Source: Candidatus Latescibacterota bacterium (GTDB lineage Bacteria > Latescibacterota > UBA2968 > UBA8231). From it: a stretch of DNA of 64,000 nt. Numbering within the stretch: position 1 is the stretch's first letter; every line of letters starts with the position of its first letter. Below the pieces are notes generated by a model that was given only the letters and a program-made list of their open reading frames with translations, did no database searches and was not told the origin of the DNA. A program made the position numbers and the translations under genes. Of the stretch, positions 12,688 to 64,000 are shown piece after piece. The stretch is taken from positions 3,776,001 to 3,840,000 of the forward strand of contig OZ241867.1 of assembly GCA_965203175.1 (NCBI GenBank). The letters run 5' to 3'.

Positions 12688-12735
12688 CTATGCTAGGTCC
12701 CAGAAATTTCTTGATTTATGCAATACGCACAGATA

Positions 12736-14885: not shown

Positions 14886-14910
14886 GTGCTAGCCAAGTGA
14901 GGAGGGGATT

Positions 14911-18605: not shown

Positions 18606-18653
18606 TAAGGCTGACTTGACTGCCTGTACCATAGACGTTGCAGGATTGTTTCA

Positions 18654-18693
18654 GGCGGGATTTACGGGCGACTGTAAATCCCGCCGTTCTCTT
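18654..18693 (+). terminator. Strong intra-operon stem-loop (partial terminator or mRNA stabiliser)
   Basis: Perfect 12-bp stem GGCGGGATTTAC-8 nt-GTAAATCCCGCC followed by a weak tail, GTTCTCTT. Confidence 0.6.
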
Positions 18694-18722
18694 AGTTGGC
18701 GACCAAGCAAAGGAGGCACTGG

Positions 18723-20573: not shown

Positions 20574-20582
20574 ATAGAAGAT

Positions 20583-22322: not shown

Positions 22323-22358
22323 GTAGATACGTAGGTACGTCTTTTAGGACAATAGGTT

Positions 22359-50933: not shown

Positions 50934-51740
50934 ATGGCACTCAAGATGGGATACGCGACCCTGCGCTGGCGGCAGCCGGATTTGGCAAAGGCTCTGCCCG
51001 AGCTCAAAAAGGCCGGTTGGGACGGCTGGGAGGGACGGTTGCCTCTCGACTGGCTGGGGCCGCCGCAGCGGCTGAAGCAAGTGTGCGAAGACGCGGATAT
51101 GCCGCTGTGCGTATTTACGGCTAGTGGCTCGCCTGAAGACCGCGACTGGGAGCACACGGAGCGCAACAAGCGGCGGATGGATTTCGCCGCGGAGATGGGC
51201 GTGGATTGCTTCATGTTTATGAGCGGTCGCAAGCCAGAGGGACGGCCAGCGGAACGCGCTGATATCGAGCGGGCGGCCGAGGGGGCCGAGCAATGGGCCG
51301 AGTACGCCGCTCAGTACGGGCTGGAGCTAAGCTACCACATCCACACCAACTTGCTGGTGGATTCGGCCGAGGATTGGCGGCTGTACATGAGTTTGCTGGA
51401 CAAAACGCGGCTGTGCATTGATGTCTCGCACGCCGAGTTGTGGGACTATGATCCGGTGCAGTCGCTGACGGACTTTTGGGATCAGCTCAACTACGTCCAC
51501 CTACAGGATTATACGTCTTGCACGGTGCGCGAGCCGGGACGCTACAATCCCGAGTGGGTTTCAGTCGGCGAGGGCGAGTGCCTCGACTTTGCCGGGGTGC
51601 TCAACACGCTCGCCGAGCGGGGCTTTGATCGCTGGGTGACCAGTTGTCCAGGCGAGCCGGCCTACGAGGGCGAGGACCCAGTCAGCGAGGCGCGGCGGAG
51701 TGCGGGGATGCGCCAGTATTTGCGCGGGTTGGGGTACTAG
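50934..51740 (+). CDS. Sugar-phosphate isomerase/epimerase TIM-barrel protein (IolE/AP-endonuclease-2-like)
   Basis: GWDGWE, YHIH, CIDVSH, YVHLQD, GEG..DF; AAGGAGG RBS. Confidence 0.78.
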   Translation: MALKMGYATLRWRQPDLAKALPELKKAGWDGWEGRLPLDWLGPPQRLKQVCEDADMPLCVFTASGSPEDRDWEHTERNKRRMDFAAEMGVDCFMFMSGRKPEGRPAERADIERAAEGAEQWAEYAAQYGLELSYHIHTNLLVDSAEDWRLYMSLLDKTRLCIDVSHAELWDYDPVQSLTDFWDQLNYVHLQDYTSCTVREPGRYNPEWVSVGEGECLDFAGVLNTLAERGFDRWVTSCPGEPAYEGEDPVSEARRSAGMRQYLRGLGY

Positions 51741-53986
51741 GGCACCTTGAACATGTGCCGCAGTTGGTCGGCCAGTTCTTTGGTTTTTTCCATCGTCTGT
51801 TGCTGCATGCGGTGTTGCCGCTTTAGGTGCTGGTAGCGCGCGTACTCGGCATCGGCGCGTTCGCGCTGACCCATTTTGAGCAGGAGATGGGATAGGGCCC
51901 GACGGGCCTGCAGATCGCGGGGATGGTGTTGCAAGATGCGCTCAAAGCGCTGGAGGGCTTGGCGGTACTGACCTTGGTTGGCCTCTAAGGTACCCATACT
52001 GCGCAAGGCGTGCACATTGTCGGGGTCGAGTGCCAGCGCCGCGAGTAAATGACCTTTGGCTGTTTCCTCATCCCCCCGCTTTAGCAGCAGATCGGCTAAA
52101 TGGCACAACCCGGCGAGATGATCGGGTTGCTGGACTATCAGTTGCTGATAGGCTTGTTCGGCGCGTTCGGGCTGGCCCTGGTTTTCGTATAGCTGGCCTA
52201 GCAGGTAGTGAGCCGACTGGGAGCCTAGTTCGAGTGCGCGGAGGTAAGCCGCTTCGGCTTGCGCCAGCCGACCGGCCGCGGCTTCGACTCGACCGAGGCG
52301 GAGGTAGAGGTGGGCTTGATCAGGTTGCCGCACTAAGAGTTTTTGGTACTCGACCGCTGATTCTTGAGCTTGGCCCCGTAGCCGGAGGAAATCGGCGAAC
52401 TGGAGGCGGACGTCGTCTTGGTCGGGATGGTGGTCGAGGAATTGCCGCCACGTGTGGGCGGCATCATCGTAGCGCTGGGTCGCCCCGTACATATGGGCGA
52501 GGCCCAGCAGGGCGTGGCGATGGGACGGGTCCAGTTCGACGGCGCGGCGGTAGTGCTGCAAGGCGTTGGTCTTCATGCCTTTGTTCTCATAGACAGCCGC
52601 CAGCGAGTAGTGGTGAAAAGCGGCCACGTGCGGACTGGTCGCCGCGGTCCCGGCGTTGGTGACCAACAGCAGTACGGCAAGGGCACCAGCCGACAGATAC
52701 AAGGCTCTATGGCGCAAATCAGCCAAGGTGCAAGCGCCATAGGCGGCCAGCAGCAAGAGGCAGGGCACGGCTGGCAAGCGATAGCGGCCCGTGACGAAAA
52801 ACAACACCACCGACAGCATGTAGACTCCCGCAAAGAGCAAGACGAGATAGGTTGCCGGGGTGCGGCGTTCCGGTTTGAGCAGGACATAGGCCGCCCCGAG
52901 CAGGGCGAGGGCCGAAACTAGACCAAAGGGGAATGCGAGGCCGTACTTCCACAGCAAAAGGCGCAACAGCGGCGAGTACTCAGCGGCGAAGTACGGATCG
53001 GTATTGCGGGGGATCTCAGCCCCGTGCCAAAACAGATAGCCCTTGTGCAAAAGCAGGGCCAAATAGTCCCCCGGCTCGGTGCGTATATATTCCCAAGCTT
53101 TGCCCAAAAGGTAGTTCGAGCCAGCTCCCGGCTGGGTGATGCCGGCCTCGCGTTGCGGCAAGTCAACTACCTCGCTCCACCCGGCTCCGGGCCGCGCCCC
53201 TACGGTGCGGTCGTAGTCTGGATTGTTGCCGAGGTAGAAGTTGACACCCGCGTTGAAGGAGATGAGCACCCACTCGCCACCGACGATGCGGTTGCGCAGA
53301 GTCACCGGGCCTACCAGCATCAGCAGACCGACGGCAAAGATCGCTAGGTGGAGGGCGCGGCGACGCATTGCCGCAGCAGGCCACCAGCGATACACCCACC
53401 AAGCCGCCACCGGCGCAAAGAGCAACACGTTCGGCACGGCCAAGGTGCCCAGTCCTAGGGCGAGTCCGGCGACAAGCGCGGGAAGGGCTCCGCCTTGGCG
53501 CTGGCCCCACAACAAGACCAACAGCAGGACCGCGTCGAAAAGCACGGCCCAAGTCGTGGGCAAAAGTTCGCCCTCAAAATAGAGGAAGGGGCCGTACAGC
53601 GCCGCTCCGAGGGCCGCTATCCAACCCACCGTCGGCGAGAAGACCTCGCGACCTAGCTTGAAGACGATCAGGCAAGTAGCCGTGCCAGCTAGGGCTTGGA
53701 GCAGACGCGGCAGGTAGTAGTTTTCGCCAAAAAAAGAAAAGAGAACGGCTAGGAAATAGGGGTAAAAAGGAGCCTGCCAGAACGGCATAGGACGCCCAGC
53801 CCAAGTGCCGGTCGCCAGTTCGCGGGCGTATTCGGTATAGCTTCTGGCATCGACAATGGGCGTGTCGAAAAAAGGGCTGTCGGCGGCTTGGAACAGGTAA
53901 ACTAAGCGCAAGCCTAGGGCCAAGACGGCTAGGGCGACCAGCTTGGGCCAGTGCAGCGCAAGCGCCTTACTTACCCAGGCCAGCAT
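51737..53986 (-). CDS. GT-C (PMT_2/ArnT-like) membrane glycosyltransferase fused to C-terminal TPR repeats
   Basis: D..SY...A, PFYPYFLA, RN...G..V.IS.N.G.NF..GN and RYRLP motifs; many TM segments; TPR array at the C-terminus. Start overlaps the 3' end of the 886-aa gene. Confidence 0.82.
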   Translation of the reverse strand: MLAWVSKALALHWPKLVALAVLALGLRLVYLFQAADSPFFDTPIVDARSYTEYARELATGTWAGRPMPFWQAPFYPYFLAVLFSFFGENYYLPRLLQALAGTATCLIVFKLGREVFSPTVGWIAALGAALYGPFLYFEGELLPTTWAVLFDAVLLLVLLWGQRQGGALPALVAGLALGLGTLAVPNVLLFAPVAAWWVYRWWPAAAMRRRALHLAIFAVGLLMLVGPVTLRNRIVGGEWVLISFNAGVNFYLGNNPDYDRTVGARPGAGWSEVVDLPQREAGITQPGAGSNYLLGKAWEYIRTEPGDYLALLLHKGYLFWHGAEIPRNTDPYFAAEYSPLLRLLLWKYGLAFPFGLVSALALLGAAYVLLKPERRTPATYLVLLFAGVYMLSVVLFFVTGRYRLPAVPCLLLLAAYGACTLADLRHRALYLSAGALAVLLLVTNAGTAATSPHVAAFHHYSLAAVYENKGMKTNALQHYRRAVELDPSHRHALLGLAHMYGATQRYDDAAHTWRQFLDHHPDQDDVRLQFADFLRLRGQAQESAVEYQKLLVRQPDQAHLYLRLGRVEAAAGRLAQAEAAYLRALELGSQSAHYLLGQLYENQGQPERAEQAYQQLIVQQPDHLAGLCHLADLLLKRGDEETAKGHLLAALALDPDNVHALRSMGTLEANQGQYRQALQRFERILQHHPRDLQARRALSHLLLKMGQRERADAEYARYQHLKRQHRMQQQTMEKTKELADQLRHMFKVP

Positions 53987-56627
53987 ATAGGGTGATAAAG
54001 CCCTGGGTCAGGATTTCCGATTCGCGTTCGATGCTCTTGAAATCGCGCCAATCTGCTTTGAGACCCACTTGAGCGGATACCTCGTAGCCCAAATAGGAAC
54101 TCACATTGGATAGCTGTAAGGCTCCGGCGACCCCGGTGAAATCATTGTTGTCGCGCTTCATATCGTTGGCGAAAGAATACTCAATTCCAGTTTGAATGCG
54201 GGTGTTGTTGAGGATGGGAAATCCCAAGAGGAATCCCACTATCTCGGTCAGCACCGTCTCCTCGTCGGCAGTAAACAGCCCCACGGTCTGGCGACGGTAT
54301 TCGCTTTTCCAACGCGGCTCGAGTTGGACGGTACCCAGATCGTAGCGGTAGCTGAATTTGTTGATGACGCCAAAGAAGGAGTCTGTCTCGCGCAGGGCTG
54401 CTTCGTCGCGCTGGTGAAAAAGCTCCAAGTTGAGATAATTATACGCCTCCAAGCCCCCTCGGTTGTAGTTGTGTCCGATCCAAGTGGTATTAATCCAAGT
54501 GTCTTGGGCTAAAAGAGGATCTACTACTTTTTGCAATTGGCCGTCGCGCTGCGTGTTTTCGGGGAACCACTGGAGTAGGTCGTCCGGGATATTGTCCTGA
54601 GCTAGCTTGAGCATCTGCATGAAGCGGAAGCGCCCTTGTTGGGGATTGTCCCGGTCTAGGCTGAACAGGGCGTAGGAAGTGTGGTTGCGCTTGTCGGCTG
54701 AGATCAATTCCTCGCGCAGGTGCCCGATGGTAAGGCGAATGTCTGGGGTCAGTCGGTATCCCGTATAGACGTTGAAGCCTCGGTGGTCTTTCTGATAGGG
54801 GTAGTCTGGGGATTCGTCGTTTTCAAAGCGGTCAACCCACAGGTTATTGTTCATGTCGATCCCGTAGAGGAAGTCGGGTCGGTCCACGCGGTGTCTGAGA
54901 AAGGCTTCGTCGTAGTCGGGAATGCCATTGGAGATGGTTAGGTTGTCGTTTTGGTTGAAGTCAGAGATGAAGTCGTAGTTCTCGTCCCAGCCGGGGAAGA
55001 CCCGGCGGTCGCCGGCTTGGGAATCGGCGCGGACTAAGTCGGGTGCGCGGTCTTGGTCGTCGTTGTCTTCTACTAGCTCCACCACGTGGAAGCGCTCGTT
55101 TTCGTAGTCTATATTGCCGGCCGAACCAGTGACAAAGGTGCGGGTGTTGTAGAGCGGGTCCATGCTGTACGCTTCACCAAAAAAGAACCAAGGATGGGCC
55201 ACCTTGGACAGGTTGATCATCCAAGCCGGCTCGACCTGCTCCCCAGCCACGCCCGCCGAAGTGGTGTGGCTGGTCCGCGTCACGCTGGGATATTTGCGGT
55301 AGGCTATACTCAGATCGTACTCGCCGTAGAAGTTGAAACCGGCCACATCCCGCAGCTCTAGGGTGGCTCCGATAATTTGGGTCGCCGTGGGCAGGCCGTA
55401 CTCGAATTTGAGGATGCGCAGGTTGGTGTTGTCCTGCACATTGCCCTCGGCCTGCGCTACCAATAGCAGCACGGGTTCGTCGCTGCGGTTGGTTTGGTTA
55501 TTGGACGTCATCCACACCTGATAGTCGTTGCCAATAGTCATTTCGAACTCGACTTTGGCGATTTCTTCTTTGGGACCCGAGGCCCGGTTGACGAAGGCGG
55601 GCGTGTCAAAGTCGTAGAGCAGGCGGATCTCTTCGGACCCATCGGCCGAGATGAAGCCTTCTTGGACGAATCCCCCTTGGATGGCTGGTTCAAAGCGGAT
55701 TTCTCGGCCGTGGTCAACAGTGCCGTCGTTGTAGGTAATGATGATGTCCGAACCCACTGGGAAGAAGGCGGCTCCACCGCTGCCGTCTGCGGGCGAGTCG
55801 TCGCGTAGAACAAGTTCGATAAAGGAAACGGTTTGGTTCTGGTCAACCGTCAAAGCCCCGGCAATGGGGTTGCCCTTAAAGCCGTCGCGCAGAGTATTGG
55901 ACTGGTGAGTGTTGACGAAGTGAACACCCATTTCGGTGAAGTCGCCGATCTGCGCGGTGGCCCGACCGCCCATTAGCGTGGTGAGGTTGGTGGTGAGGAC
56001 TTCGGTGTTGTCGGTCGAAGCCCCACCGGGCGAACTAAGGCGCGAGTAGATGACGGTGCCTTGGTACTTGTCGGTGGCTATGTCGAACTGGACTCCGTCC
56101 CAAAAGGGTTTGGAAAAGCTCATGGGGGTGAGCGTGGTGCGCAGGCGATTCGACACCGTCAGGGCGTAGTGATACTGACCCTTGCTGTCCGAGGCAATAG
56201 CCACGCCCGAAAACCAGTTGTTAAAGCGAGAGGCCTTGACCAGCGAACTGCCAAATTGCCGCGGCTGAGTCTGCGAGTTGCTAAATATGAGCCAGCCACG
56301 GGTGATGGCGTTGCCAAATAGGTCGTAGTAGTAGTCGCCCTCTAGCCGGATATCGACGTAGCGCTGGTACAGGTTGCGGGCGTAGTTGCTGTACTCCCAC
56401 TGGCGCCAGCGGTACTCGTTGTAGAGTTCCTGCGGCACGTACCACTTTTTAATGGCCGGATCCAGCGCGTCGAAGAGGACGCCTGGGCCATAAGGGGCGT
56501 AGCTGGTCTCGCCTTCCCCTCGGGGGACGCCCAGCCGCGTGCCATAGTCGGGTTGGCTGTAGGCCGGGCTTAGCACACAGCTCAAGACTACCAAGACAGA
56601 CGCGGTATTTAGCCTTATCACTTCCAT
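53967..56627 (-). CDS. Conserved ~890-aa secreted, predicted beta-barrel protein (paralog of 14911-17580)
   Basis: Signal peptide ending AYS-Q; shares GPGVLFDALDPA..KWYVPQELY.EY.WRQWEYSNYAR, EDNDDQDR.PD, DMNNN.W.DRFEND, LEPR.KSE and YAGL. Confidence 0.78.
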   Translation of the reverse strand: MEVIRLNTASVLVVLSCVLSPAYSQPDYGTRLGVPRGEGETSYAPYGPGVLFDALDPAIKKWYVPQELYNEYRWRQWEYSNYARNLYQRYVDIRLEGDYYYDLFGNAITRGWLIFSNSQTQPRQFGSSLVKASRFNNWFSGVAIASDSKGQYHYALTVSNRLRTTLTPMSFSKPFWDGVQFDIATDKYQGTVIYSRLSSPGGASTDNTEVLTTNLTTLMGGRATAQIGDFTEMGVHFVNTHQSNTLRDGFKGNPIAGALTVDQNQTVSFIELVLRDDSPADGSGGAAFFPVGSDIIITYNDGTVDHGREIRFEPAIQGGFVQEGFISADGSEEIRLLYDFDTPAFVNRASGPKEEIAKVEFEMTIGNDYQVWMTSNNQTNRSDEPVLLLVAQAEGNVQDNTNLRILKFEYGLPTATQIIGATLELRDVAGFNFYGEYDLSIAYRKYPSVTRTSHTTSAGVAGEQVEPAWMINLSKVAHPWFFFGEAYSMDPLYNTRTFVTGSAGNIDYENERFHVVELVEDNDDQDRAPDLVRADSQAGDRRVFPGWDENYDFISDFNQNDNLTISNGIPDYDEAFLRHRVDRPDFLYGIDMNNNLWVDRFENDESPDYPYQKDHRGFNVYTGYRLTPDIRLTIGHLREELISADKRNHTSYALFSLDRDNPQQGRFRFMQMLKLAQDNIPDDLLQWFPENTQRDGQLQKVVDPLLAQDTWINTTWIGHNYNRGGLEAYNYLNLELFHQRDEAALRETDSFFGVINKFSYRYDLGTVQLEPRWKSEYRRQTVGLFTADEETVLTEIVGFLLGFPILNNTRIQTGIEYSFANDMKRDNNDFTGVAGALQLSNVSSYLGYEVSAQVGLKADWRDFKSIERESEILTQGFITLYAGLGK

Positions 56628-56651
56628 AATCTTCCCTTTGACTGGTGTACA

Positions 56652-59600
56652 CTAATAGACTACGGCCACGATGCGGGCCAAGGCCGTGTCGGTGGCCCGG
56701 TCCGAATCGGCACCGAAATCAATCCGGCATATATAGAGGCCTGGCGGCACGGTGCGGTCAGCCGCATCGCGGCCGTTCCAGCGGATTTGCTGGGGGCCTC
56801 CTGACACTTGAGTGCTATTTTCCCATATCAGGCGTCCGTCCAGTGAGTAGAGGCGCAGACGCGCTTGGCGAGCTTGGGTCACTTGAAAGATGGAAAACGC
56901 GACGGTCAGTTCGTCGTTGATCCCGTCGCCATTGGGCGTAAAGGGGTTGGGAGCCAAGCTCAGGTCGCCGAGGACTTGCCCCCCCACGGGGATGCTCAGC
57001 GTCAGTTGGCGGCTGTCCGTTAGCGCAGTGGCGTCGCCTGGTTCTACTTGCTGCCACAAACTGCCGTCGGTGCCAGCGGCGGCGCGACGGACAAAAGGCT
57101 TAAAGGTGGTTCCGTTGCGAAAGATAGCAGCGGCAAAGCGCAAGTGGATCAGGGGGCCTTGGCCTAAGATGGCTCCGCGCTCGGCTCTGGGCAACGCGCG
57201 GTAGGTTGCGCGCGTCAGGGAATCGCCCAAGGCGTCAAAGGGCGATTGGGCCCCGCCGCCGCGCAGTTTGCGAAAATAGCGAATCGGCCCTTGTTCGGCT
57301 GAGGGCAAGTCATCGTACTCAGCGCGGCCAGAGACCGCTGCCAAGCCGCTGGCGGTCTGCCGCAAGAAGAGGATAGCTCCGCGCTCGGCCTCGTTGAGCA
57401 GGCCGTAGGCCACTTCTGTGATCAGGTCGCCGTCTTCGCCAACCATGACTTCGGCCCCTTGGGGGGTGATGCGGTGGTAGGTCTGAACTGCCTGCTCTGC
57501 CGGTAGGGTCTGGTGTAGTTGGGGCAGCAGGACCCAGATAGAGTCGGCGTGGTTGCGCCGCACTTGGGCGATGGCTCCAGCAGCGTCGGTCAAGTTGCCA
57601 TCGGCCGCTAGGGTAAATGTCTGCAAGGGGCTTCCGCGGCCTAGCTCTTCCTCGGTCCCTGTGCTCAGGCTCAACAGGTGCAGCGCGAGCCCGGGCGGAG
57701 CCTGCAACAGGATTTCGTCAAAGCCTGGGGTGCGGTCAGCCGCTGGTTCGTCTATGAATACCGGGCGCAGATACAGGTCGAACGTGTCTAGCTGGCCGAC
57801 CGCGGCCTGCGTGGGCCATACTTCGGCGGTGAGAGCGCGGGCTACGGGCGGGGCTAGCTCTACTTCGATCGAGCTAATTGAGGCGGCTTGCAGGCGATCT
57901 TGGCTGGTAAAGCGCACCTGCAACTGCATGTAATTGCGCAGCCCGGGGGAACGGACCCGGTCGCCCGGCTGTAGGTACTGCTGGCTCCAAGGACTCCAGC
58001 CGCTGCCGAGGGCAAAGGTGGTGTCGATGGGTCCCTTCCAACTGCTGATCAGCTTGTCCCATTCTTCTTTGGTCTTCTCGTTGCCGTTGACGTCGAAATG
58101 GCGAATTTGCTGCACCAGCAGATCGCCGGTGCGCGTCCGCACTTCCGCCGTCGTGCCGGAGGGGTGGGTACCGGGGGGCGGATCCCAGCGGATGGCCCCG
58201 AAGTTGCGCGGTCCCGGCAGGCGGATGATATCGGACACCAGTGAAGCTTGGCTGACAAACCCCTCAGTGTAGAGCAGGACTTCGGTCAGATCGTAGAAAA
58301 AGCCCGAAGTCCGCGCGATGCCCGGCAGGCGCAGGTTGAGGAAGCGGATATCTAGGGGTGGGTCAAAGCGGTCGGCGGCGCGCTTGAATCCCCCTTCCAT
58401 GCGGTCGGGTAGGCTGACCTGTCGCCACCGGAGCCGGCCATTGGGATCGCGGCTGCCGTCGGCCACCTCGGTGATGTAGCCGGGAATAAAGGGAACGGCC
58501 AAGCGCATGGCGTCGAGCCAGACGCGGGCACCAATATCGACGGTGAGAATGCCAGCGGTGGGATTGGTGCTAAACCACGCTGGCATGCGGAAGGTGGTGT
58601 TCCAGTCGCCGTCAAAGCCCCCAGCCGGGACTTCTGGTCCGGTAAAGCTAACGCTACCGCCCCCGTCAATTAGCTTAGGCGATAGGTTGTCGCCCCAGCC
58701 CCAGACTTCGACTTCGGCCAGCCGGGGCCGCTCGCGGAGATAGTACTCTTTGCGGCCCTGCTGTTCTTGGGGGAGGCTCTCGTAAATAGCCTGCTCCACT
58801 GGCTCCTCAAAGCCGACGTCGTCGCGGATGTAGTAGAGTATATCGCCTCGTTCGTCGGCCGGCAGGGCATCCCACGCCGCCTGGTCGATTTGGTGTGCCC
58901 GCCCCAGCTTGCTGTCGCCGATGAGAATGCGCACGGTTTGGGCCATGCGACCGGTCCACTCGGTGCGGTCGTCGTCGTCTTCGGAAAAGCCGGGCGTGTC
59001 CTCGGAAGAAAACGCCATGGTCCGCTGATTCGTATTGGGAGCTCGGGTTTGGCCGACCACCTTGAACTGGAGCACGCGGCTTTGGGCTTGAATGAGCTTC
59101 TGCTGGGGGGCTAGCATGACGCGGAACTGGCGGAAGGGATCGCCCAAGGTCTCATCGACAAAGTGCAGCACTACCTTCTCGACCACGACCGTGCGGCCCA
59201 AGTCGATCTCGATCCACCACTTGTCTGGCGTGGCCGCTAAGTCTGGTTCCCAAAAGGTGTCGCGGTCGCCATCGACAATGTAGGGGGCTAGGGCTTCGTT
59301 GGAGCCTACCCGGCTGACGCCGACGCGCTGGACGTAGTCGTACACCGGGAAGGCGATTTTGTCTTTAGCGCCAAATTCGCGCGTTGATTCTACCCCCGTG
59401 CGTTCGTCGCGCAGGCTTAGGGTCACGGTTTTGCCGTCGCCGCTGAGGGTGGTGTCGACGATGGTTAGGAGTCGGCCGTTGAGGGGGATCTGGCTGTGGT
59501 TGCCGGGGAAGCGTTTGAAGTCTCGGTTGAGGAATTTGATCAGTTGCTCGGCCTTGCTGACGGTAAAGCTGCCGTCTGCTTCCAGCGTCGGGGTGCGCTG

Positions 59601-59912
59601 GAGGTTCATAATCGCCCGATCCGCCTTGCGAATGCCCGGTTGGTCCACGGGTTTGGCAAATACCGCGCGATCTTCGGCGATGATGTTGTACACGTGGCGG
59701 AAGAAATGAGGCTTGACCGTCCCGTCTGGATGCACATCGACTACGTGCGAGGGCCCGGTCCAGTGTCGCCAATAGGAAGCCTTATCGACGATGATGCGAT
59801 CGCCCTGCAGACGGTGGCCTAAGGGCGCTTGGGCACTGACTTGCTGGAGGGCCAAACACCCAAAAGCTAAGGCCCAAATCCGGCTCCAACGGCTATATCG
59901 CTTGCGGTTCAT
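56652..59912 (-). CDS. Secreted protein, cassette subclass B (paralog of 22359-25043)
   Basis: Signal peptide ending VSA-QA; VDGDRDTFWEP, EIDLGR, RERPRLAEVEVW, EVRTRTG, GWSPWSQ; FTPNGDGIND...WNGRD...AVVY*. Confidence 0.8.
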   Translation of the reverse strand: MNRKRYSRWSRIWALAFGCLALQQVSAQAPLGHRLQGDRIIVDKASYWRHWTGPSHVVDVHPDGTVKPHFFRHVYNIIAEDRAVFAKPVDQPGIRKADRAIMNLQRTPTLEADGSFTVSKAEQLIKFLNRDFKRFPGNHSQIPLNGRLLTIVDTTLSGDGKTVTLSLRDERTGVESTREFGAKDKIAFPVYDYVQRVGVSRVGSNEALAPYIVDGDRDTFWEPDLAATPDKWWIEIDLGRTVVVEKVVLHFVDETLGDPFRQFRVMLAPQQKLIQAQSRVLQFKVVGQTRAPNTNQRTMAFSSEDTPGFSEDDDDRTEWTGRMAQTVRILIGDSKLGRAHQIDQAAWDALPADERGDILYYIRDDVGFEEPVEQAIYESLPQEQQGRKEYYLRERPRLAEVEVWGWGDNLSPKLIDGGGSVSFTGPEVPAGGFDGDWNTTFRMPAWFSTNPTAGILTVDIGARVWLDAMRLAVPFIPGYITEVADGSRDPNGRLRWRQVSLPDRMEGGFKRAADRFDPPLDIRFLNLRLPGIARTSGFFYDLTEVLLYTEGFVSQASLVSDIIRLPGPRNFGAIRWDPPPGTHPSGTTAEVRTRTGDLLVQQIRHFDVNGNEKTKEEWDKLISSWKGPIDTTFALGSGWSPWSQQYLQPGDRVRSPGLRNYMQLQVRFTSQDRLQAASISSIEVELAPPVARALTAEVWPTQAAVGQLDTFDLYLRPVFIDEPAADRTPGFDEILLQAPPGLALHLLSLSTGTEEELGRGSPLQTFTLAADGNLTDAAGAIAQVRRNHADSIWVLLPQLHQTLPAEQAVQTYHRITPQGAEVMVGEDGDLITEVAYGLLNEAERGAILFLRQTASGLAAVSGRAEYDDLPSAEQGPIRYFRKLRGGGAQSPFDALGDSLTRATYRALPRAERGAILGQGPLIHLRFAAAIFRNGTTFKPFVRRAAAGTDGSLWQQVEPGDATALTDSRQLTLSIPVGGQVLGDLSLAPNPFTPNGDGINDELTVAFSIFQVTQARQARLRLYSLDGRLIWENSTQVSGGPQQIRWNGRDAADRTVPPGLYICRIDFGADSDRATDTALARIVAVVY

Positions 59913-59938
59913 GGAGTTTCTCCAAGTTGTGCGACCGT

Positions 59939-61594
59939 TTAAAAGGCGGTGAGGAAATCGTCGGGCAGGGCCGCAGCTAATTGCTGTTGGTCCACTTGGA
60001 TCTGATCGGCGTATTGCTGGCGCAGGGTTTCTATATAGGCTTGAAACCGCTCCCGCTCCTCGGCCCGGCGCAGCATGTCGCTAACCTGCCGGCGGACTTG
60101 GGCAAAAGGCATCCGTTCCCCCGGCTGGCGGCGGACGATCTTGAATACGGAGAAGCCATCGTGGACTTGCACCGGTCCGACTAGTTCATCTGGCTGCGCG
60201 GCTAGGATATGAGATACCAAGTCCGAAGTTTTCTCCATGGGAAAGACGCCGCCCCGCGCTTGGGCCCCTCGGCGTTTGCTGCGCTCTTGGCCTAGGGCCG
60301 CGATGTCGGCCCCCGCTTCGATTTGCCGCCGCACGGCTAGCGCTTCTTCTTCGGTCTCCACCAGTACTTCGGCCACGTCGATCTGGTCCCGGCGACGGAA
60401 GCGCTCGGTCTGCTCGTCATAGTAGCGGCGCACGGCCTCTGGGGCGATGGTGATGGATGCCACTACTTTTTGCTGGCGCAGTTGGCTGATGACGACCTCT
60501 TCGCGCAGGCTCTGCCGCACCGCTTCGAGGGTCTCTCGGTCAATTAAATCCTCGTGGTGGACCGCGGCGGCAAAGATGTAAGGCTGGAGCAGAAAGCGCT
60601 CGGCGAGTTGGACCAAGGCGGTGCTGTCGGCTACGGCGTTGATGTTGCGGTTTTTGAGTTGGTCGAGCAGCTCGCCTAGGGGCACTTGGCCGCCCGTAAA
60701 CTTGAACAAAGGCGTTCGTTCTTCCTCTGGCGTCAGTTCCAAGGCTGCCAACGGCTGGCCTTTTTCCAGCAGGAGGTGCAACCCTGGTTCGTGGAGATTC
60801 CAGTCGTATTTGTCGGCCAATTGTTCGGCCCGGGCCGCTCGCGCTTCGCCGAGTCTTTCCTCTTGGAGTTGTTGGAGGATTTCGTCCCGGAAGTCGAAGT
60901 AGGATACGGGCCGTTCCTCAGTAAAGCGCACGACGCAAAAGCCTGCGGAGTGGGGCAGTACGGGCGATAAGACCCCCAAGGGCAAATCGTAGAACAGCGA
61001 ATCGGGGAGGCCCATGCGGCGGATGGATTCCACTCGGAGCCAGCCGAGTTCGCCCCCGTTGACTGCGTCGGGTGTAATGGAGTAGCGGGCGGCCACTTCG
61101 CCAAACGGAGTGCCAGCGGCCAACTCGGCCACGGCTTGTTCTAGTTCCGGCCGCGCCTTGGCCATAATACCCCACGTCATTCGCTCTAACGTGCTGTGGA
61201 GTCCTTGGCGCTCGAAGCGCTGTTTGATCTCGGTCTCTTCAACAAGGGGCGGTTGCACGGGTTTGCGCTTGAGATAGAGGGCGACCAAATGCCGACGGAT
61301 TCTGCGCTCTAGTTGGCGCTGGGTTGTGGCCGCGGTGTCCAAACCGAGGGCTTGGGCTTCCAGCCACATGAGGTGGTAGTCGATGAGGGGTTGGAGGTAC
61401 TCGCGCCGCGCTGCCGAACCTTCTTGGCGGCTCCGCTGGCTTTCGTTTAGCCCTAGGACGTAGGATCGGAGATCCTCGGCGGTGATAGCGCGTGTACCGA
61501 TCTGAACCACGGCGGGGAATTCCTGCTCACCACAGCCCCACAAAAAGGCCCCGATCAGGGCGCAAGCTATTGTCGCGATGCGTACTCTGTTCAT
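59939..61594 (-). CDS. SurA/PrsA-like lipoprotein with two parvulin domains (paralog of 20583-22322)
   Basis: Lipobox LWGC; EAQALGLD; FGEVAARYS...GGELGW; EVLVETEEEA; ALPD.FL C-terminal motif shared with the paralog. Confidence 0.8.
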   Translation of the reverse strand: MNRVRIATIACALIGAFLWGCGEQEFPAVVQIGTRAITAEDLRSYVLGLNESQRSRQEGSAARREYLQPLIDYHLMWLEAQALGLDTAATTQRQLERRIRRHLVALYLKRKPVQPPLVEETEIKQRFERQGLHSTLERMTWGIMAKARPELEQAVAELAAGTPFGEVAARYSITPDAVNGGELGWLRVESIRRMGLPDSLFYDLPLGVLSPVLPHSAGFCVVRFTEERPVSYFDFRDEILQQLQEERLGEARAARAEQLADKYDWNLHEPGLHLLLEKGQPLAALELTPEEERTPLFKFTGGQVPLGELLDQLKNRNINAVADSTALVQLAERFLLQPYIFAAAVHHEDLIDRETLEAVRQSLREEVVISQLRQQKVVASITIAPEAVRRYYDEQTERFRRRDQIDVAEVLVETEEEALAVRRQIEAGADIAALGQERSKRRGAQARGGVFPMEKTSDLVSHILAAQPDELVGPVQVHDGFSVFKIVRRQPGERMPFAQVRRQVSDMLRRAEERERFQAYIETLRQQYADQIQVDQQQLAAALPDDFLTAF

Positions 61595-61595
61595 G

Positions 61596-63650
61596 TCAAT
61601 AGGCTACGTATAGAGGGTGTGCCTGCAGGTCGTCGCCTAGGTCCCCGGCTACGGTTATGCCCAACAAGTACACGCCTGGGGGGACGAGTTGGCCACCAGC
61701 GGCTCGCCCGTCCCAAGTGAGGGCGTAACGACCGTTGCTGAGCGCCGTCTGCTGTAGGGTGTGTACCAGCCGACCCGACAAGTCGTATAGGCGCACCGCG
61801 ACGGCACCGGCCTTGGTCAGCGCCAAGATGTTATAGGCGATAGCGACTTGGTCGTTGATCCCATCGCCATTGGGCGTAAAGGGGTTGGGCGTCAGCTCGA
61901 GGGCATCAATCAGCCGTTCGCTGCGGATTACCGAAGGACTGAGCACCGTGGTGCCCGAGTGGGTGGGCTGGTCTTCGTCCCCCAAGGCGGCGCTATTGCC
62001 CGAAGTGGCGTTTTGAAACGAACCGGGTTCGCTCGACAGCGAGGCCTGCCCGCGAAATTCGGTGCTGAAGGCCAGCACGGACGCGCGAAACCTGATTTTC
62101 AGCAGGCTATCATCGGCTTGGATAGGCGGAAAGCGCACGCTGAAATGGTCCTCTGCAATGGCGTTGATGGCAAGCCCCGAACCGCCAGCCGTATCGCCTT
62201 GCGCAAAGGCGTGGGAGGCGACTAGCTGACCTTGGGCATCGAGAATTTCTACCTGTTCCACCTGTTCCACTCGAATGGGGGTAGTTATCGCAAAAGTATC
62301 GAATCCCAGTAGGTCCGGCGAATCCATGCGCATCCGCACGGCATAGGTAAAGGACGTAGAGGTTGAAGCCTCTACTTGGCGAGGGAAAATCTCGGCGACG
62401 AATTCGTCGGCCAGCGGTGGAGTCAGGTACGAAAGGGAGATGTGCTCAAGGCGGCGCGCCGATTGGATATCATTGCTCTGAGCGCTGACGCGGAACTGAA
62501 GGTAGTGCCGCGGCGAAGGGGAGATGATCGGGGTGCCTTGGGGGGACGTGCCCTCGTCGAGCGGATAGGGAGGGCTCCAAGGACTCCAGTTTTCCAGATC
62601 GTCCTTGATCGAGCCTTTGGACCACATGACGCCATTATCATCTACTAAGGGGAGTTGTTCGTACTCGTCTAGGCGCATGGGCTCGGTGGGATCGGCAATG
62701 GAAAAGGGGATCTCGGGGTCGGTGCGCTTGTCCGTGCGCTGGCGGTGAAAAACAAAAGGCGTGTCGTCATTGCCGCTGCGCGTGGAAATCAGCAGACTGG
62801 ACTGGGCTGAGTCTCCCACGGCTTTTTCCACCCAGCGAATGCGACCCCAAGCCGCAAGGCCTGGGGCGAAAATATCCGAGAAGTACGAAGCCGCCGGCAA
62901 AAAGCCAGTGCCGTAGATTTCGATCTCGTCTATTTCAAAGGGGATGGGCGTGGCCGAGCGCAGGCGGAAGGAGCGGATATAGCGGGGCGGATCGAATTCG
63001 ATGTCAACGACGGGCTTGGTGTTTTGGGCTTCCTCCACTATGGGCGAGCCCCATACGGGAAAACCATCGGCCGTGAGGTTGAGTCCGTCGTTGACAAACA
63101 GCTCAAACGCGCGCAAAAAGTCGTTCTGAAAGGCGGCCGTGGGCGCGGGGTGGACCGTATTGCGCGGGTAGAAGCGAAAGCGATTGACGCCGAAGCGGGC
63201 CCCTAAATCGCCGATGATGAGGGTGCCGCGCACGTCGCCACTTTTGCGCTCAAAGGCTTGAGTCTCACCGCCGGCTAGGTCGCTGAGAATTTCAGCGAGG
63301 GCCTCGGTGAGATCCTCGCGGGTGAAGTCCGCGGTGAAGCGCAGCACCGTGGGGGCGGCTATGGTGCCGCCGCGTTCGAGGGTGCCCGAAGCGATGTTTT
63401 CGCCCTCTTGCAGTTCCCGGGGCGCTAAGACTCGCTGGGAAAAGTCGATGAGTTCGCCTGGGGAGTTACCTATCAGCACTACGTTGGGATTGACCAAGCT
63501 GCGGTACTCTGGGTCCAACGTGCCGATAGCAGCACCGGTGCCATCCCAGTCGATAGGGGCGTCCAAGCCGACGCTGAGCGTATCCAAGGCCTCGACCGGG
63601 GCCGTGAGGACGAGGGCTGTTAGGCTGTGAGCAAGTAGGCTTCTCAACAT
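61596..63650 (-). CDS. Secreted protein, cassette subclass A (paralog of 12870-14885 and 18723-20573)
   Basis: AGGAG RBS, ATG at 63650, signal peptide ending VEA; DLGARFGVNRFRFYPR, EIEIYGTGF, RSGNDDTP; FTPNGDGIND...WDGR...YVAY*. Confidence 0.8.
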   Translation of the reverse strand: MLRSLLAHSLTALVLTAPVEALDTLSVGLDAPIDWDGTGAAIGTLDPEYRSLVNPNVVLIGNSPGELIDFSQRVLAPRELQEGENIASGTLERGGTIAAPTVLRFTADFTREDLTEALAEILSDLAGGETQAFERKSGDVRGTLIIGDLGARFGVNRFRFYPRNTVHPAPTAAFQNDFLRAFELFVNDGLNLTADGFPVWGSPIVEEAQNTKPVVDIEFDPPRYIRSFRLRSATPIPFEIDEIEIYGTGFLPAASYFSDIFAPGLAAWGRIRWVEKAVGDSAQSSLLISTRSGNDDTPFVFHRQRTDKRTDPEIPFSIADPTEPMRLDEYEQLPLVDDNGVMWSKGSIKDDLENWSPWSPPYPLDEGTSPQGTPIISPSPRHYLQFRVSAQSNDIQSARRLEHISLSYLTPPLADEFVAEIFPRQVEASTSTSFTYAVRMRMDSPDLLGFDTFAITTPIRVEQVEQVEILDAQGQLVASHAFAQGDTAGGSGLAINAIAEDHFSVRFPPIQADDSLLKIRFRASVLAFSTEFRGQASLSSEPGSFQNATSGNSAALGDEDQPTHSGTTVLSPSVIRSERLIDALELTPNPFTPNGDGINDQVAIAYNILALTKAGAVAVRLYDLSGRLVHTLQQTALSNGRYALTWDGRAAGGQLVPPGVYLLGITVAGDLGDDLQAHPLYVAY

Positions 63651-63660
63651 GCTCCGGCTC

Positions 63661-64000
63661 CTAGTAGGCGACCGAAATGGTGCCGACTTGTTCTTCTGCA
63701 CCTTCATCGGTGTCTAGTCGAATGCGGTAGATATAGACCCCTGGGGACACTAGACGGCCGTCGGACCGGCGGCCATCCCAAGAATACTCTACTATTCCGG
63801 TTTTGGTCTGCGTGGTAGCCAAGGTCTGTACTTCGTGGCCCGAGAGGTCGTACAGGGACACTTGTAGGGGCCGGCGCACGACCACTTCGCGCACATCAAA
63901 AGACAGTTGCGCAATGTCGTTGACTTGGTCGTTGTTGGGGGTAAAAGGGTTGGGATGCACTCGCACATCCGTCAACAGCCGACCACCCACGCGGGTGCGC
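63661..64000 (-). CDS. C-terminal part of a further FlgD-Ig/CHU_C-domain protein, truncated by the window edge
   Basis: PNPFTPNNDQVND...YDLSG...WDGR...PGVY...SVAY*. Confidence 0.8.
   Translation of the reverse strand, partial: RTRVGGRLLTDVRVHPNPFTPNNDQVNDIAQLSFDVREVVVRRPLQVSLYDLSGHEVQTLATTQTKTGIVEYSWDGRRSDGRLVSPGVYIYRIRLDTDEGAEEQVGTISVAY

What the first reader, a model, noticed from the sequence alone, without database searches (positions are those of the whole stretch)
53967..64000. Copy 2 of the cassette: same parts, shuffled order, deep divergence
Seen, in transcription order: CTD protein (partial), A, parvulin lipoprotein, B, 886-aa barrel, GT-C/TPR, with gaps of 1-26 bp. The barrel has moved from second position to after B, while A-parvulin-B is kept. 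The proteins are clearly homologous to copy 1 but far from identical, so this is not a recent duplication. Inference: two copies within 64 kb suggest a genome-wide expanded family of loci, organised like PULs but built from different parts.
Basis: partly seen in the sequence, partly recalled or inferred. Interest (0 to 1): 0.85.

Follow-up and report, generated by a model that had tools for sequence, protein, structure and literature searches.

The report
Expanded lectin-and-barrel surface cassette
This is one of about forty copies, in one uncultured Latescibacterota genome, of a gene cassette that pairs secreted sugar-binding-type proteins with a large outer-membrane barrel of no known family; it is probably an undescribed way of capturing nutrients or attaching at the cell surface.

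Summary
On the minus strand of 51737-64000 lie an A-like gene end, A (703 aa), a parvulin lipoprotein (551), B (1086), a family-less barrel (886) and a GT-C/TPR protein (749). The gaps are 1-26 bp. Identity to copy 1 (12645-25043) is 29-48%.

The predicted expansion is real. The genome holds 62 full-length barrel genes in 38 clusters, and 285 core cassette genes make up 9.4% of the chromosome. The barrel occurs in 106 of 168 genomes of the phylum and co-occurs with A/B, parvulin, s302 and GT-C in other genomes. The parts co-diversify (Mantel r 0.64-0.82).

A and B are T9SS cargo. They carry a CTD like those of PorZ and PorU, and A carries a CBM32-like domain. The genome has SprA and PorU. The parvulin is SurA-like, but a histidine conserved in SurA's parvulin domains is replaced. 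The barrel matches nothing in Pfam, NCBIfam or PDB.

My best reading (0.4) is a PUL-like capture-and-uptake module. The main rival (0.3) is T9SS cargo with a dedicated anchor barrel. Function is inferred, not shown. CAZymes beside the cassettes are sparse.

This scan met the same cassette before on another Latescibacterota genome (e1-1360736). I found no paper on it.

The parts
63661..64000 (-). 3' end (C-terminal sorting domain) of an upstream A-like T9SS cargo gene. The gene continues beyond the window and is 720 aa in the genome.
   Evidence: ORF open at the window end. CHU_C 37.1 bits, FlgD_ig 36.8 bits. TIGR04183 27.8 bits, cut-off 23. One search shows the full 720-aa gene.
61596..63707 (-). 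A: 703-aa secreted multi-domain beta-sandwich protein, T9SS cargo.
   Evidence: AF2 model with mean pLDDT 90.6. 118 relatives in the genome by phmmer.
62898..63410 (-). CBM32 / F5-8 type C-like (galactose-binding-domain-like) module of A, residues about 100-270.
   Evidence: Z 13-14.1, rmsd 2.2-2.8 A over 125-141 residues, 17-18% identity, to CBM32 modules (4a42, 2xqx, 2v72 with galactose), chitosan-binding modules (4zy9) and the N-domain of galactose oxidase.
61599..61919 (-). C-terminal sorting domain (CTD) of A, residues about 597-703.
   Evidence: FlgD_ig 49.1 bits, CHU_C 35.4 bits. TIGR04183 type A 28.5 bits (cut-off 23); TIGR04131 type B 25 bits (cut-off 35). PorZ CTD 5m11 Z 10.4, rmsd 2.6, 24% identity; PorU 6za2 Z 12.5.
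59939..61594 (-). SurA/PrsA-like lipoprotein with two parvulin-type domains that look non-catalytic.
   Evidence: Rotamase_2 64.6 bits; lipobox-like FLWGC at residues 17-21. SurA 1m5y E 1.1e-9; the aligned GWH/GFH of SurA reads GFC/GFS here; the Cys is nearly invariant in 23 paralogues and no His is conserved.
56652..59912 (-). B: 1086-aa T9SS cargo with an F5/8 type C domain, homologous to A over much of its length.
   Evidence: F5_F8_type_C 32.1 bits, CHU_C 34.5 bits; 35.4% to B of copy 1; A and B align with each other.
53967..56627 (-). 886-aa outer-membrane beta-barrel of an undescribed family. It has a signal peptide, a conserved aromatic-rich N-terminal region of about 100 residues, an inserted beta-sandwich (about 265-400) and a conserved acidic segment (about 520-612).
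   Evidence: no Pfam, NCBIfam or PDB sequence match; invariant columns. AF2 pLDDT 71, pTM 0.71, long antiparallel strands; only generic barrel matches.
51737..53986 (-). GT-C-type (PMT_2/ArnT-like) membrane glycosyltransferase with a C-terminal TPR domain. It overlaps the barrel gene by 20 nt.
   Evidence: TPR families; PMT_2 25.6 bits (cut-off 26.1). Paralogues pass: 52.7 bits and 62.9 bits. 15 relatives in the genome.
12645..25043 (+). Copy 1 of the cassette, for comparison: A-like 746 aa, barrel 889, s302 (302 aa), A 625, parvulin 579, B 894.

Best explanation
Copy 2 is one unit of a lineage-specific, massively repeated cell-surface module of Latescibacterota. I read it as a PUL-like capture-and-uptake device built from unrelated parts.

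Shown:
- A, B and the upstream A-like protein are exported through the type IX secretion system. They carry a CTD, and the genome has the T9SS core.
- A carries a CBM32-type lectin module, and B carries an F5/8 type C domain.
- The 886-aa protein is a large outer-membrane barrel of no known family.
- The parvulin gene encodes a SurA-like lipoprotein in which a histidine conserved in SurA's parvulin domains is replaced.
- The genes are packed as one operon-like block, and the parts co-diversify across about 40 loci.

Inferred:
- The lectin-like proteins sit on the surface at or near their own barrel and bind a particular glycan or glycoconjugate.
- The barrel passes the captured ligand into the periplasm, perhaps driven by a Ton-type motor, as its deep-branching relatives suggest.
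- The SurA-like lipoprotein acts as a dedicated periplasmic binder or chaperone, of the ligand or of the barrel and cargo, rather than as an isomerase.
- The GT-C/TPR enzyme glycosylates cassette proteins in the periplasm.
- Each paralogous cassette has its own specificity.
For: Scale and unit character:
- 62 full-length barrels in 38 clusters.
- 285 core genes total 616 kb, or 9.4% of the genome.
- Share of each family within 10 genes of a barrel: parvulin 31/36, A 94/118, s302 28/33, GT-C 13/15. A random gene scores 15.5%.
- Mantel r between barrel and partner identity matrices: 0.64 (27 pairs, parvulin), 0.81 (29, B), 0.68 (36, A), 0.82 (22, s302). 0 of 2000 permutations reached the observed value.

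Lectin-type cargo:
- CBM32-like domain in A, Z 13-14.
- F5/8 type C in B.
- The s302 profile hits chain 1i82 at E 6e-4. A 317-aa relative beside a divergent barrel passes Pfam CBM9_1 at 39.3 bits.
- 155 of 187 CTD genes in the genome belong to the A/B superfamily.

T9SS present: SprA over cut-off, PorU 632 bits, and a PorV-like gene next to PorU.

Link to energised transport: the divergent barrels stand in operons barrel(s) - ~1100-aa TPR/YfiO protein - ExbB - ExbD. This is seen in this genome (L043), in G031 and in G011, which belong to three families. A weak TonB_C protein follows a barrel triple in L068.

Barrel without cargo: in G008, 3 of 3 loci examined have barrels but no A/B or CTD gene. 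They carry DUF6785, s302, a sulfatase and PhyH instead. G008 has SprA and 25 FlgD_ig matches.

Nutrient-type neighbours, of 134 unlabelled neighbours: 9 DUF6785 polytopic membrane proteins, 12 FG-GAP/ASPIC, 3 SBP_bac_1, plus UxuA, MR_MLE, FGGY, GFO/IDH, GH5+CBM4_9, a PL4-like protein and 2 sulfatases. 29 of 51 DUF6785 genes lie within 10 genes of a barrel. In barrel-less sister genomes, DUF6785 sits among heparinase II/III, sulfatases, an M60-like peptidase and an SBP.

Conservation: the order of copy 2 is kept in 4 of 4 close orthologous loci.
Against: - No plug domain or TonB box is recognisable. The conserved N-terminal 100 residues fold with low confidence. Fold searches give only generic barrels.
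- Classical CAZymes are rare beside the cassettes: 2 of 134 neighbours are GH/PL-type and 2 of 134 are sulfatases. No recurrent regulator was seen.
- DUF6785 is not a dedicated partner. It is present in 56 of 56 genomes of families f2-f4, which lack the barrel (0 of 56). It is absent from 13 of 13 genomes of f10, where the barrel is in 12 of 13.
- In the main subfamily, including copy 2, no ExbBD or TonB gene is adjacent.
- The nearly constant pairing with T9SS cargo, and the co-diversification, fit a pure anchor model equally well.
- The genome also has 31 ordinary Plug-type receptors over the Pfam cut-off, so a second import route is not required.
- Nothing here shows ligand binding, surface location or transport.
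Confidence: 0.4

Rival explanations
1. T9SS cargo with a dedicated anchor or shuttle barrel. The barrel does what PorP/SprF-like proteins do for type B cargo in Bacteroidota: it receives the co-encoded A/B proteins after translocation and holds them on the surface. The cassettes would then be a repertoire of interchangeable lectin-like adhesins or surface-coat proteins, for example for attachment to host or particle glycans, with no import role.
For: - Barrel genes are almost always next to CTD genes. 123 of 187 CTD genes lie within 10 genes of a barrel. A/B is present in 72 of 75 related loci.
- Barrel and A/B co-diversify, r 0.68-0.81, as expected for specific binding pairs.
- Pfam CHU_C, the type B model, is passed by the CTDs.
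- Precedent: PorP binds type B cargo PG1035 and SprF binds SprB (PMC9143113, abstract). Cognate PorP/SprF shuttles are genetically linked to type B substrates and needed for their secretion (PMC12618676, abstract).
- No PF11751 match was found in this genome, so the role could be vacant. The control genomes were silent too.
Against: - The barrel has no PorP_SprF match. At 886 aa it is far longer than the 273-position Pfam PorP_SprF model.
- There are 2-4 CTD genes per 1-2 barrels, not one to one.
- NCBIfam's type B model is below cut-off (25 against 35) while the type A model passes (28.5 against 23).
- G008 has barrels without adjacent A/B or CTD genes in 3 of 3 loci examined.
- Divergent barrels sit in ExbB-ExbD operons.
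Confidence: 0.3
2. Part of a motor-coupled, envelope-spanning surface machine. Barrels, a giant TPR protein and an ExbB/ExbD-type motor would move or expose a surface adhesin, as in gliding or spore-coat machines (Agl-Glt/Nfs of Myxococcus, recalled from memory; SprB/SprF gliding in Flavobacterium). The many single-barrel cassettes would be derived adhesin modules that plug into it.
For: The operon A/B-type CTD gene - 2-3 barrels - ~1100-aa TPR/YfiO - (DUF5683) - ExbB - ExbD(x2) appears in three families of the phylum (L043, L152, L153). A weak TonB_C protein follows the barrel triple in L068. SprF-SprB binding is known (PMC9143113, abstract).
Against: Motor genes are next to only the 11 divergent barrels' kind of locus, not the 51 main-subfamily barrels. 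No Glt, Nfs or Gld homologue was tested or seen. Forty-odd adhesin modules for one machine would be unusual. The resemblance is recalled, not tested.
Confidence: 0.1
3. Export or glycosylation module. The GT-C/TPR enzyme and the barrel would build and export a glycoconjugate or surface polymer, by analogy with TPR-plus-barrel exporters such as BcsC, PgaA and AlgK/E (recalled from memory). A and B would be its scaffold or modifiers.
For: In copy 2 the GT-C/TPR gene overlaps the barrel gene by 20 nt. Barrel-GT-C adjacency recurs: 13 of 15 GT-C genes lie within 10 genes of a barrel, and GT-C is in 41 of 54 related loci. VIA-align lists AlgE, BcsC and PelBC among many barrels at Z 10.5-12.5.
Against: Copy 1 and many other cassettes have no GT-C gene. 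No synthase, flippase or polymerase recurs among the 134 neighbours. The barrel matches to exporters are no better than those to porins or BamA. GT-C enzymes of the PMT/ArnT type usually modify acceptors rather than polymerise (recalled).
Confidence: 0.08

Closest known systems
Polysaccharide utilisation loci (SusC/SusD type) of Bacteroidota
   Same: Many paralogous loci per genome. Each pairs an outer-membrane barrel with a lipoprotein and surface-exposed carbohydrate-binding-type proteins, the parts co-diversify, and transporters and sugar-catabolic genes lie nearby.
   Different: No SusC-type Plug or TonB-receptor domain in the barrel. No SusD in the cassette; the single genomic hit lies outside the window. 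The lipoprotein is SurA-like. The binding proteins are T9SS cargo, not lipoproteins. CAZymes and regulators are sparse. Uptake is not shown.
T9SS type B cargo with cognate PorP/SprF-like shuttle or anchor (P. gingivalis PorP-PG1035; F. johnsoniae SprF-SprB)
   Same: CTD-bearing cargo genes are genetically linked to an outer-membrane barrel gene, in several specific pairs per genome (PMC9143113 and PMC12618676, abstracts).
   Different: The barrel is not a PorP_SprF family member and is far longer than the 273-position PF11751 model. There are several cargo genes per barrel. The CTD is of the FlgD_ig kind and passes the type A, not the type B, NCBIfam model. A SurA-like lipoprotein, s302 and GT-C/TPR are added. 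Copy number is far higher: 62 barrels here against 12 type B substrates reported for F. johnsoniae (PMC12618676, abstract).
SurA / PrsA / PpiD parvulin chaperones
   Same: Two PPIC-type parvulin domains flanked by helical segments. The best solved relatives are SurA and PrsA.
   Different: It is a lipoprotein and exists in 36 divergent paralogues (22-34% identity to the first sequence). In the alignment, the His in SurA's GWH/GFH motifs is replaced by C or S. All NCBIfam equivalog scores are far below cut-off (37.4 against 394 for SurA).
TonB-dependent transporters with ExbB/ExbD
   Same: Large outer-membrane barrels. The divergent subfamily is co-operonic with ExbB and ExbD in three families.
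   Different: No Plug or TonB_dep_Rec domain. No solved TBDT stands out in the fold searches. The main subfamily has no motor genes nearby.

Membership tests
SusC/SusD polysaccharide utilisation locus | SusC-like TonB-dependent receptor (Plug plus TonB_dep_Rec barrel) | tested here: not met
   The barrel has no Pfam family at E<=0.01 and no NCBIfam family. The genome's 32 Plug matches (31 over cut-off) lie elsewhere.
SusC/SusD polysaccharide utilisation locus | Adjacent SusD-like lipoprotein (PF07980) | tested here: not met
   The single genomic match is at G000 3767002-3767358, before the window start. The cassette lipoprotein is parvulin-type.
SusC/SusD polysaccharide utilisation locus | Neighbouring carbohydrate-active enzymes | tested here: inconclusive
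   Of 134 unlabelled neighbours in 40 regions: GH5+CBM4_9 1, PL4-like 1, CBM9 1, sulfatase 2, plus several sugar-acid enzymes and SBPs. None is immediately beside copy 2 in the window.
Type IX secretion cargo | C-terminal sorting domain at the very C-terminus | tested here: met
   CHU_C and FlgD_ig are over cut-off in the partial gene, A and B. TIGR04183 is over cut-off in A and the partial gene. The fold matches the PorZ and PorU CTDs.
Type IX secretion cargo | T9SS core present in the same genome | tested here: met
   SprA is over cut-off. PorU scores 632 bits against a cut-off of 420. A PorV-like gene beside PorU scores 147.5 bits, below the cut-off of 250. PorK/L/M/N were not searched.
PorP/SprF shuttle with type B cargo | Barrel belongs to PorP_SprF (PF11751) | tested here: not met
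   No hit in either barrel. No PF11751 match in the genome, though the control genomes were silent too.
PorP/SprF shuttle with type B cargo | Cargo CTD is type B | tested here: inconclusive
   Pfam CHU_C passes at 34.5-37.1 bits. NCBIfam type B TIGR04131 is below cut-off at 16.6-25 bits against 35, and type A TIGR04183 passes in A and the partial gene.
PorP/SprF shuttle with type B cargo | Physical binding of the cargo CTD to the barrel | not testable with these tools
See Tried and rejected for the one modelling attempt.
Parvulin (PPIC-type) chaperones, SurA/PrsA | PPIC-type rotamase domain(s) | tested here: met
   Rotamase_2 64.6, Rotamase 47.6 and Rotamase_3 31.1 bits, all over cut-off. SurA and PrsA are the best PDB sequence matches.
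Parvulin (PPIC-type) chaperones, SurA/PrsA | Conserved histidine of the parvulin G-[FW]-H motif (its catalytic role is recalled from memory) | tested here: not met
   The alignment to SurA shows GFC and GFS where SurA has GWH and GFH. No His column is conserved among 23 paralogues.
CBM32 / F5-8 type C lectin-like modules | Domain fold or profile | tested here: met
   B: Pfam F5_F8_type_C 32.1 bits against 28.2. A: Z 13-14.1, rmsd 2.2-2.8 A to several CBM32 structures.
CBM32 / F5-8 type C lectin-like modules | Carbohydrate binding | not testable with these tools
   Needs glycan arrays or ITC.
GT-C glycosyltransferase (PMT_2/ArnT-like) | PMT_2 profile over cut-off | tested here: inconclusive
   The gene of copy 2 scores 25.6 bits against a cut-off of 26.1. 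Paralogues score 52.7 and 62.9 bits.

The most novel reading that the evidence does not exclude
A new class of outer-membrane uptake machine, independent of SusC/TonB-receptor barrels. A family-less barrel of roughly 24 strands would work with T9SS-delivered CBM32-type lectins and a catalytically dead SurA-like lipoprotein as its periplasmic receiver. It would be multiplied to about 60 specificities and serve as the main nutrient-capture system of these Latescibacterota.
Probability: 0.3. Interest if true: 0.9.

Novelty: new variant of a known kind. Interest (0 to 1): 0.75.

Why it matters
Nearly a tenth of this genome (616 kb) is spent on one cassette. Its central protein has no Pfam, NCBIfam or solved relative. 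It is annotated only as 'hypothetical protein' among the 120 best homologues that were listed.

Latescibacterota are uncultured and widespread.

Whatever the cassette does, it is likely to be a main interface between these cells and their surroundings. If it is an uptake device, it shows that a PUL-like strategy was invented a second time from different parts: T9SS cargo instead of lipoproteins, a new barrel instead of SusC, and a SurA-like protein instead of SusD. If it is an anchor system, it greatly widens the known range of T9SS shuttle proteins beyond Bacteroidota.

Either way it yields a new barrel family, a pseudo-isomerase chaperone family and a large set of untested lectin modules.

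Tried and rejected
- **Complex model.** A complex-prediction job with the barrel (residues 26-886) and the CTD of A (596-703) returned 'no answer', score 0.00. It is not evidence either way.
- **DUF6029 lead** from the protein atlas (0.88). PF19494 hits only an unrelated 532-aa frame at 5975020, none of the barrels. Rejected.
- **Fold searches on the barrel model.** Foldseek TM was at most 0.26 to the query (SlpA, MtrB, LptD, FimD). VIA-align wide gave Z 9.6-14.2 on partial alignments to porins, BamA/TamA, FhaC/CdiB, AlgE and SprA. No family stands out.
- **PDB sequence searches.** Both the single barrel and the 42-row profile gave 0 hits at E<=1.
- **DUF6785 as the dedicated inner-membrane partner.** Rejected as strict coupling by its phyletic pattern. 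Its likeness to OPT/peptide transporters is only an atlas lead at 0.76-0.78. Pfam at E<=0.05 shows no OPT, and PDB gave nothing meaningful.
- **PorP_SprF search of the genome.** No match, but the control genomes were silent as well, so absence is not shown.
- **Promoter and terminator scan of 50500-64000.** It found 1 promoter-like site against 3.0 expected and 14 terminator-like sites against 12.6 expected. Uninformative.
- **RNA-library contigs** (X15, X16, X18, X19; three studies). Pieces 90-99% alike cover almost the whole cassette and bridge gene junctions: one of 8034 nt over 57990-63999 and one of 3202 nt over 53749-56936. They are contigs of relatives, DNA can be present in such libraries, and a contig across genes shows no single transcript. 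I count this as a hint of expression only.
- **Literature.** Searches for 'DUF6785', 'Latescibacterota' + 'type IX secretion' and 'Latescibacter' + 'T9SS' each gave 0 papers. 'Latescibacteria' + 'outer membrane' + 'polysaccharide utilization' gave 1 paper (PMC4454575, listing only). In PMC7081726 I read 12 of 17 matched passages and none concerns this cassette. Its supplementary tables were not opened and might list domain counts.
- **Labels on related loci.** The Gemmatimonadetes, Bryobacterales and Woeseia labels on some loci are record titles of MAGs and short contigs. I did not treat them as spread outside the phylum.


Full report
**What is there.** On the minus strand of 51737-64000 six ORFs follow each other:
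- the 3' end of a gene that runs off the window (63661-63999)
- A (61596-63707, 703 aa)
- a parvulin gene (59939-61594, 551 aa)
- B (56652-59912, 1086 aa)
- an 886-aa ORF (53967-56627)
- a 749-aa ORF (51737-53986)

The spacers are 1, 26 and 24 nt, and the last two genes overlap by 20 nt.

Pfam finds a T9SS-type C-terminal domain in the partial gene, A and B (CHU_C and FlgD_ig, both over cut-off). It finds PPIC-type rotamase domains in the 551-aa protein and an F5/8 type C domain in B. The last protein has TPRs plus a borderline PMT_2 (GT-C) match. The 886-aa protein has nothing. The 551-aa protein starts with a lipobox-like FLWGC.

Copy 1 (12645-25043, plus strand) has the same families in another order, plus a 302-aa gene ('s302'). 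An sigma-70/terminator pattern scan of the block gave no more than chance.

**How many copies.** The window lies at G000:C1:3776001-3840000 of a 6.58-Mb single-contig genome.

A profile of the barrel hits 62 ORFs, all covering at least 600 of 892 profile positions. 51 score 400 bits or more and 11 are divergent. They lie in 38 clusters, as 36 single barrels, 10 tandem pairs and 2 tandem triples.

On a crude gene call of 5492 genes, phmmer finds:
- 36 parvulin lipoproteins
- 141 A/B genes
- 187 CTD genes
- 33 s302 genes
- 15 GT-C/TPR genes

The 285 core genes add up to 616 kb, or 9.4% of the genome.

Shares within 10 genes of a barrel are: parvulin 31/36, A 94/118, B 90/117, s302 28/33, GT-C 13/15 and a 260-aa lipoprotein family 14/16. 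A random gene scores 15.5%.

The parvulin-B-barrel order of copy 2 recurs at 1.95, 2.15, 2.54, 4.09 and 6.46 Mb. Those barrels are the five closest to copy 2's, at 57-65% identity. Copy 1 and copy 2 are thus two recurrent architectures rather than one shuffled unit.

**The parts evolve together.** I compared identity matrices of barrels with those of their nearest partners. Mantel r was 0.64 (27 pairs, parvulin), 0.81 (29, B), 0.68 (36, A) and 0.82 (22, s302). None of 2000 permutations reached the observed value. Only the 49 barrels with phmmer E below 1e-100 were used, each partner was used once, and pairs more than 6 genes apart were dropped. Paralogues are related, so this shows duplication as a unit, and perhaps co-adaptation, but not binding.

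**Other genomes.**
- The barrel profile matches 106 of 168 genomes of the phylum. That includes all 75 other genomes of the window's own family and members of nine further families. It matches 0 of 56 genomes in three sister families of the same class.
- In a library of 1.84 billion representative proteins, 1071 reach E<=1e-3 and 369 reach E<=1e-30.
- The 120 best of 672 word-indexed homologues carry no Pfam domain, and the only names given are 'hypothetical protein'.
- A pattern scan of one genome per species gave 596 confirmed stretches. The best 75 loci are MAGs titled Latescibacterota or, in older labels, Gemmatimonadetes, plus two short contigs with other labels.
- Within 10 kb of the barrel in those 75 loci: A/B in 72, parvulin in 56, s302 in 57, GT-C in 51, DUF6785 in 23. 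Of the 54 loci of at least 20 kb the counts are 54, 49, 45, 41 and 21.
- The order of copy 2 is kept in the four closest orthologous loci (60-99% identity per gene). B-barrel-GT-C is kept in more distant ones.
- Full cassettes occur in two other families (G010, G006).

**What the proteins are.**

*A.* A folds with high confidence (pLDDT 90.6) into a chain of beta-sandwich domains.
- Residues about 100-270 match CBM32 and related lectin modules at Z 13-14.1 and rmsd 2.2-2.8 A. These include C. perfringens GH89 and NanJ with galactose, EndoD, chitosan-binding modules and the galactose oxidase N-domain.
- The last 107 residues match the CTDs of PorZ (Z 10.4, 24% identity) and PorU (Z 12.5).

*T9SS context.* The genome has SprA and PorU over the NCBIfam cut-offs, and a PorV-like gene beside PorU. 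155 of the 187 CTD genes are hit by a profile of A's non-CTD part. The T9SS of this organism therefore mostly serves this one superfamily.

*Parvulin.* The solved relatives are SurA and PrsA (E 1e-9 to 1e-6). Where SurA has GWH and GFH, the protein reads GFC and GFS. Among 23 paralogues only the lipobox Cys and a few structural residues are kept. I take it to be a binder or chaperone, not an isomerase. The catalytic role of that His is recalled, not tested.

*s302.* Its profile reaches chain 1i82 at E 6e-4. I recall that entry as a family 9 CBM. A 317-aa relative next to a divergent barrel passes Pfam CBM9_1.

*Barrel.* The model (pLDDT 71, pTM 0.71) shows a signal peptide and about two dozen long antiparallel strands, by my count from the DSSP string. 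It also shows an inserted beta-sandwich at about 265-400. Two highly conserved segments fold poorly: the aromatic-rich residues 26-125 and the acidic, D/N-rich 520-612. Sequence and fold searches give only generic barrels.

**Clues to mechanism.**

1. The 11 divergent barrels stand in two- or three-barrel operons with an ~1100-aa TPR/YfiO protein followed by ExbB and ExbD. This is seen in this genome (L043: barrel, TPR 1090, ExbB, ExbD), in G031 (L152) and in G011 (L153). A weak TonB_C protein (23.7 bits, cut-off 24.6) follows a barrel triple in L068. This ties the superfamily to a proton-driven motor, though not the main subfamily directly.
2. In G008, 3 of 3 barrel loci have no A/B or CTD gene. 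They carry DUF6785, s302, PhyH, a sulfatase, DUF4159 and Spermine_synth-TPR proteins instead. G008 has SprA and 25 FlgD_ig matches. The barrel can therefore exist without adjacent cargo.
3. The 134 unlabelled neighbours of at least 180 aa, in 40 regions of this genome, break down as follows:
   - 12 FG-GAP/ASPIC
   - about 13 TPR-only
   - 9 DUF6785/DUF6784 (13-14 hydrophobic segments)
   - 5 PhyH
   - 3 FGE-sulfatase
   - 3 SBP_bac_1
   - 2 sulfatases
   - single GH5+CBM4_9, PL4-like, CBM9, UxuA, MR_MLE and FGGY proteins, and others

   This is a nutrient-use flavour but not a CAZyme-rich one. Just beyond the window, upstream of copy 2, lie two DUF6785 genes, a GMC oxidoreductase and another GT-C/TPR on the same strand (L050).
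4. DUF6785 is enriched near barrels (29 of 51 within 10 genes) but is not a dedicated partner. It is in all 56 genomes of the barrel-less sister families and in none of the 13 of family f10, where the barrel is in 12. In two barrel-less genomes its neighbours include heparinase II/III (2), sulfatases (3), an M60-like peptidase, an SBP, a TonB receptor and several family-less 740-940-aa proteins.

**Reading.** The shown facts fit two models that are not exclusive.

The first is a PUL-like capture-and-uptake module. T9SS-delivered lectins sit at a large import barrel, a SurA-like receiver waits below, and there is one specificity per cassette.

The second is cargo plus a dedicated anchor or shuttle barrel, as PorP/SprF is for type B cargo in Bacteroidota (PMC9143113 and PMC12618676, abstracts read).

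I put the first at 0.4 for four reasons: the barrel's size, its motor-linked relatives, the cargo-free loci of G008 and the catabolic neighbours. I put the second at 0.3 because the pairing with cargo is so constant and no uptake feature (plug, TonB box) is visible. Motor-coupled surface machinery (0.1) and export or glycosylation (0.08) remain possible.

The cassette fails the membership tests for SusC/SusD loci and for PorP/SprF, so it is filed under neither.

**Habitat and expression, in passing.** Fourteen runs hold 35-90% of the sampled words of 54000-63999. Contigs from four RNA libraries of three studies, 90-99% alike, cover nearly the whole cassette and bridge its gene junctions. The tool's own caveats apply.

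**Novelty.** I found no paper on this. Searches gave 0 papers, one search gave one general genome paper seen as a listing only, and the passages of PMC7081726 read do not touch it. This scan met the same cassette earlier on another Latescibacterota genome (e1-1360736), and my results agree with that note. They add:
- the census of this genome
- the co-diversification test
- the CBM32, CBM9 and dead-parvulin evidence
- the ExbBD-linked subfamily
- the cargo-free loci
- the decoupled DUF6785 profile

Noticed in passing
window 17697-18605 (s302 of copy 1) and 46 other genes of G000: A conserved motif at the extreme C-terminus, T-A-V-E-x-x-S-W-G-x-[IVL]-K-x-x-[F/Y/L], ends 47 genes of the genome. 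They include 20 of the 33 s302 genes and a tandem array of 190-370-aa genes at 1361532-1376241. It looks like a sorting or docking tag. Neither Pfam nor NCBIfam recognises it on s302.
   Followed up: partly
G000:C1:2792466-2806900 (L042/L043), 6156224-6169391 (L065), 5640422-5650904 (L060), 6511322-6519563 (L068); also L152 (G031) and L153 (G011): A divergent barrel subfamily (about 30% identity to copy 2) stands in operons of two or three barrels with an ~1100-aa TPR/YfiO protein, sometimes DUF5683, then ExbB and one or two ExbD. The arrangement is conserved in three families of the phylum.
   Followed up: partly
L050:6994-8931 and 13786-15759 (3-12 kb beyond the window end) and genome-wide: DUF6785/DUF6784 polytopic membrane proteins (about 650 aa, 13-14 hydrophobic segments) number 51 by phmmer in this genome. 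They are expanded (22-68 first-look candidates) even in sister families that lack the barrel, and absent from family f10. No paper mentions the name. The atlas gives only a weak lead to OPT/peptide transporters.
   Followed up: partly
G000:C1:3767002-3770884, 5-9 kb before the window start: The genome's only SusD_RagB match (37.3 bits, with one TAA inside the matched frame) lies next to a 977-aa Plug-domain receptor. This is an ordinary SusC/SusD-like pair close to copy 1.
   Followed up: no
genome-wide; e.g. L033:16306-18051 with 17981-19630, L069:15285-16913 with 16919-18118: FG-GAP_3/UnbV_ASPIC proteins (60 by phmmer, 38 within 10 genes of a barrel) recur beside TPR-only proteins. In L062:2888-6082 the two are fused.
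   Followed up: no
window 38645-41353: A 902-aa protein with TPR, YfiO and a C-terminal TonB_C domain (27.2 bits) sits between the carbamoyl-phosphate synthase large-chain gene and the dihydroorotate dehydrogenase genes.
   Followed up: no
window 29640-31121 and 48538-50832: Two unusual fusions: PhyH dioxygenase with HEAT repeats (493 aa), and MFS_1 transporter with HEAT repeats (764 aa). PhyH genes also recur beside cassettes, as 5 of 134 neighbours.
   Followed up: no
L146, L147, L148 (G008): In this 3.1-Mb genome of another family, barrels (15 matches) are flanked in 3 of 3 loci by DUF4159 proteins and by 930-1120-aa Spermine_synth+TPR membrane proteins, not by T9SS cargo.
   Followed up: partly
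window 54000-63999: Public runs labelled sponge metagenome hold 35-80% of the sampled words of this stretch. RNA-library contigs 90-99% alike cover it.
   Followed up: partly
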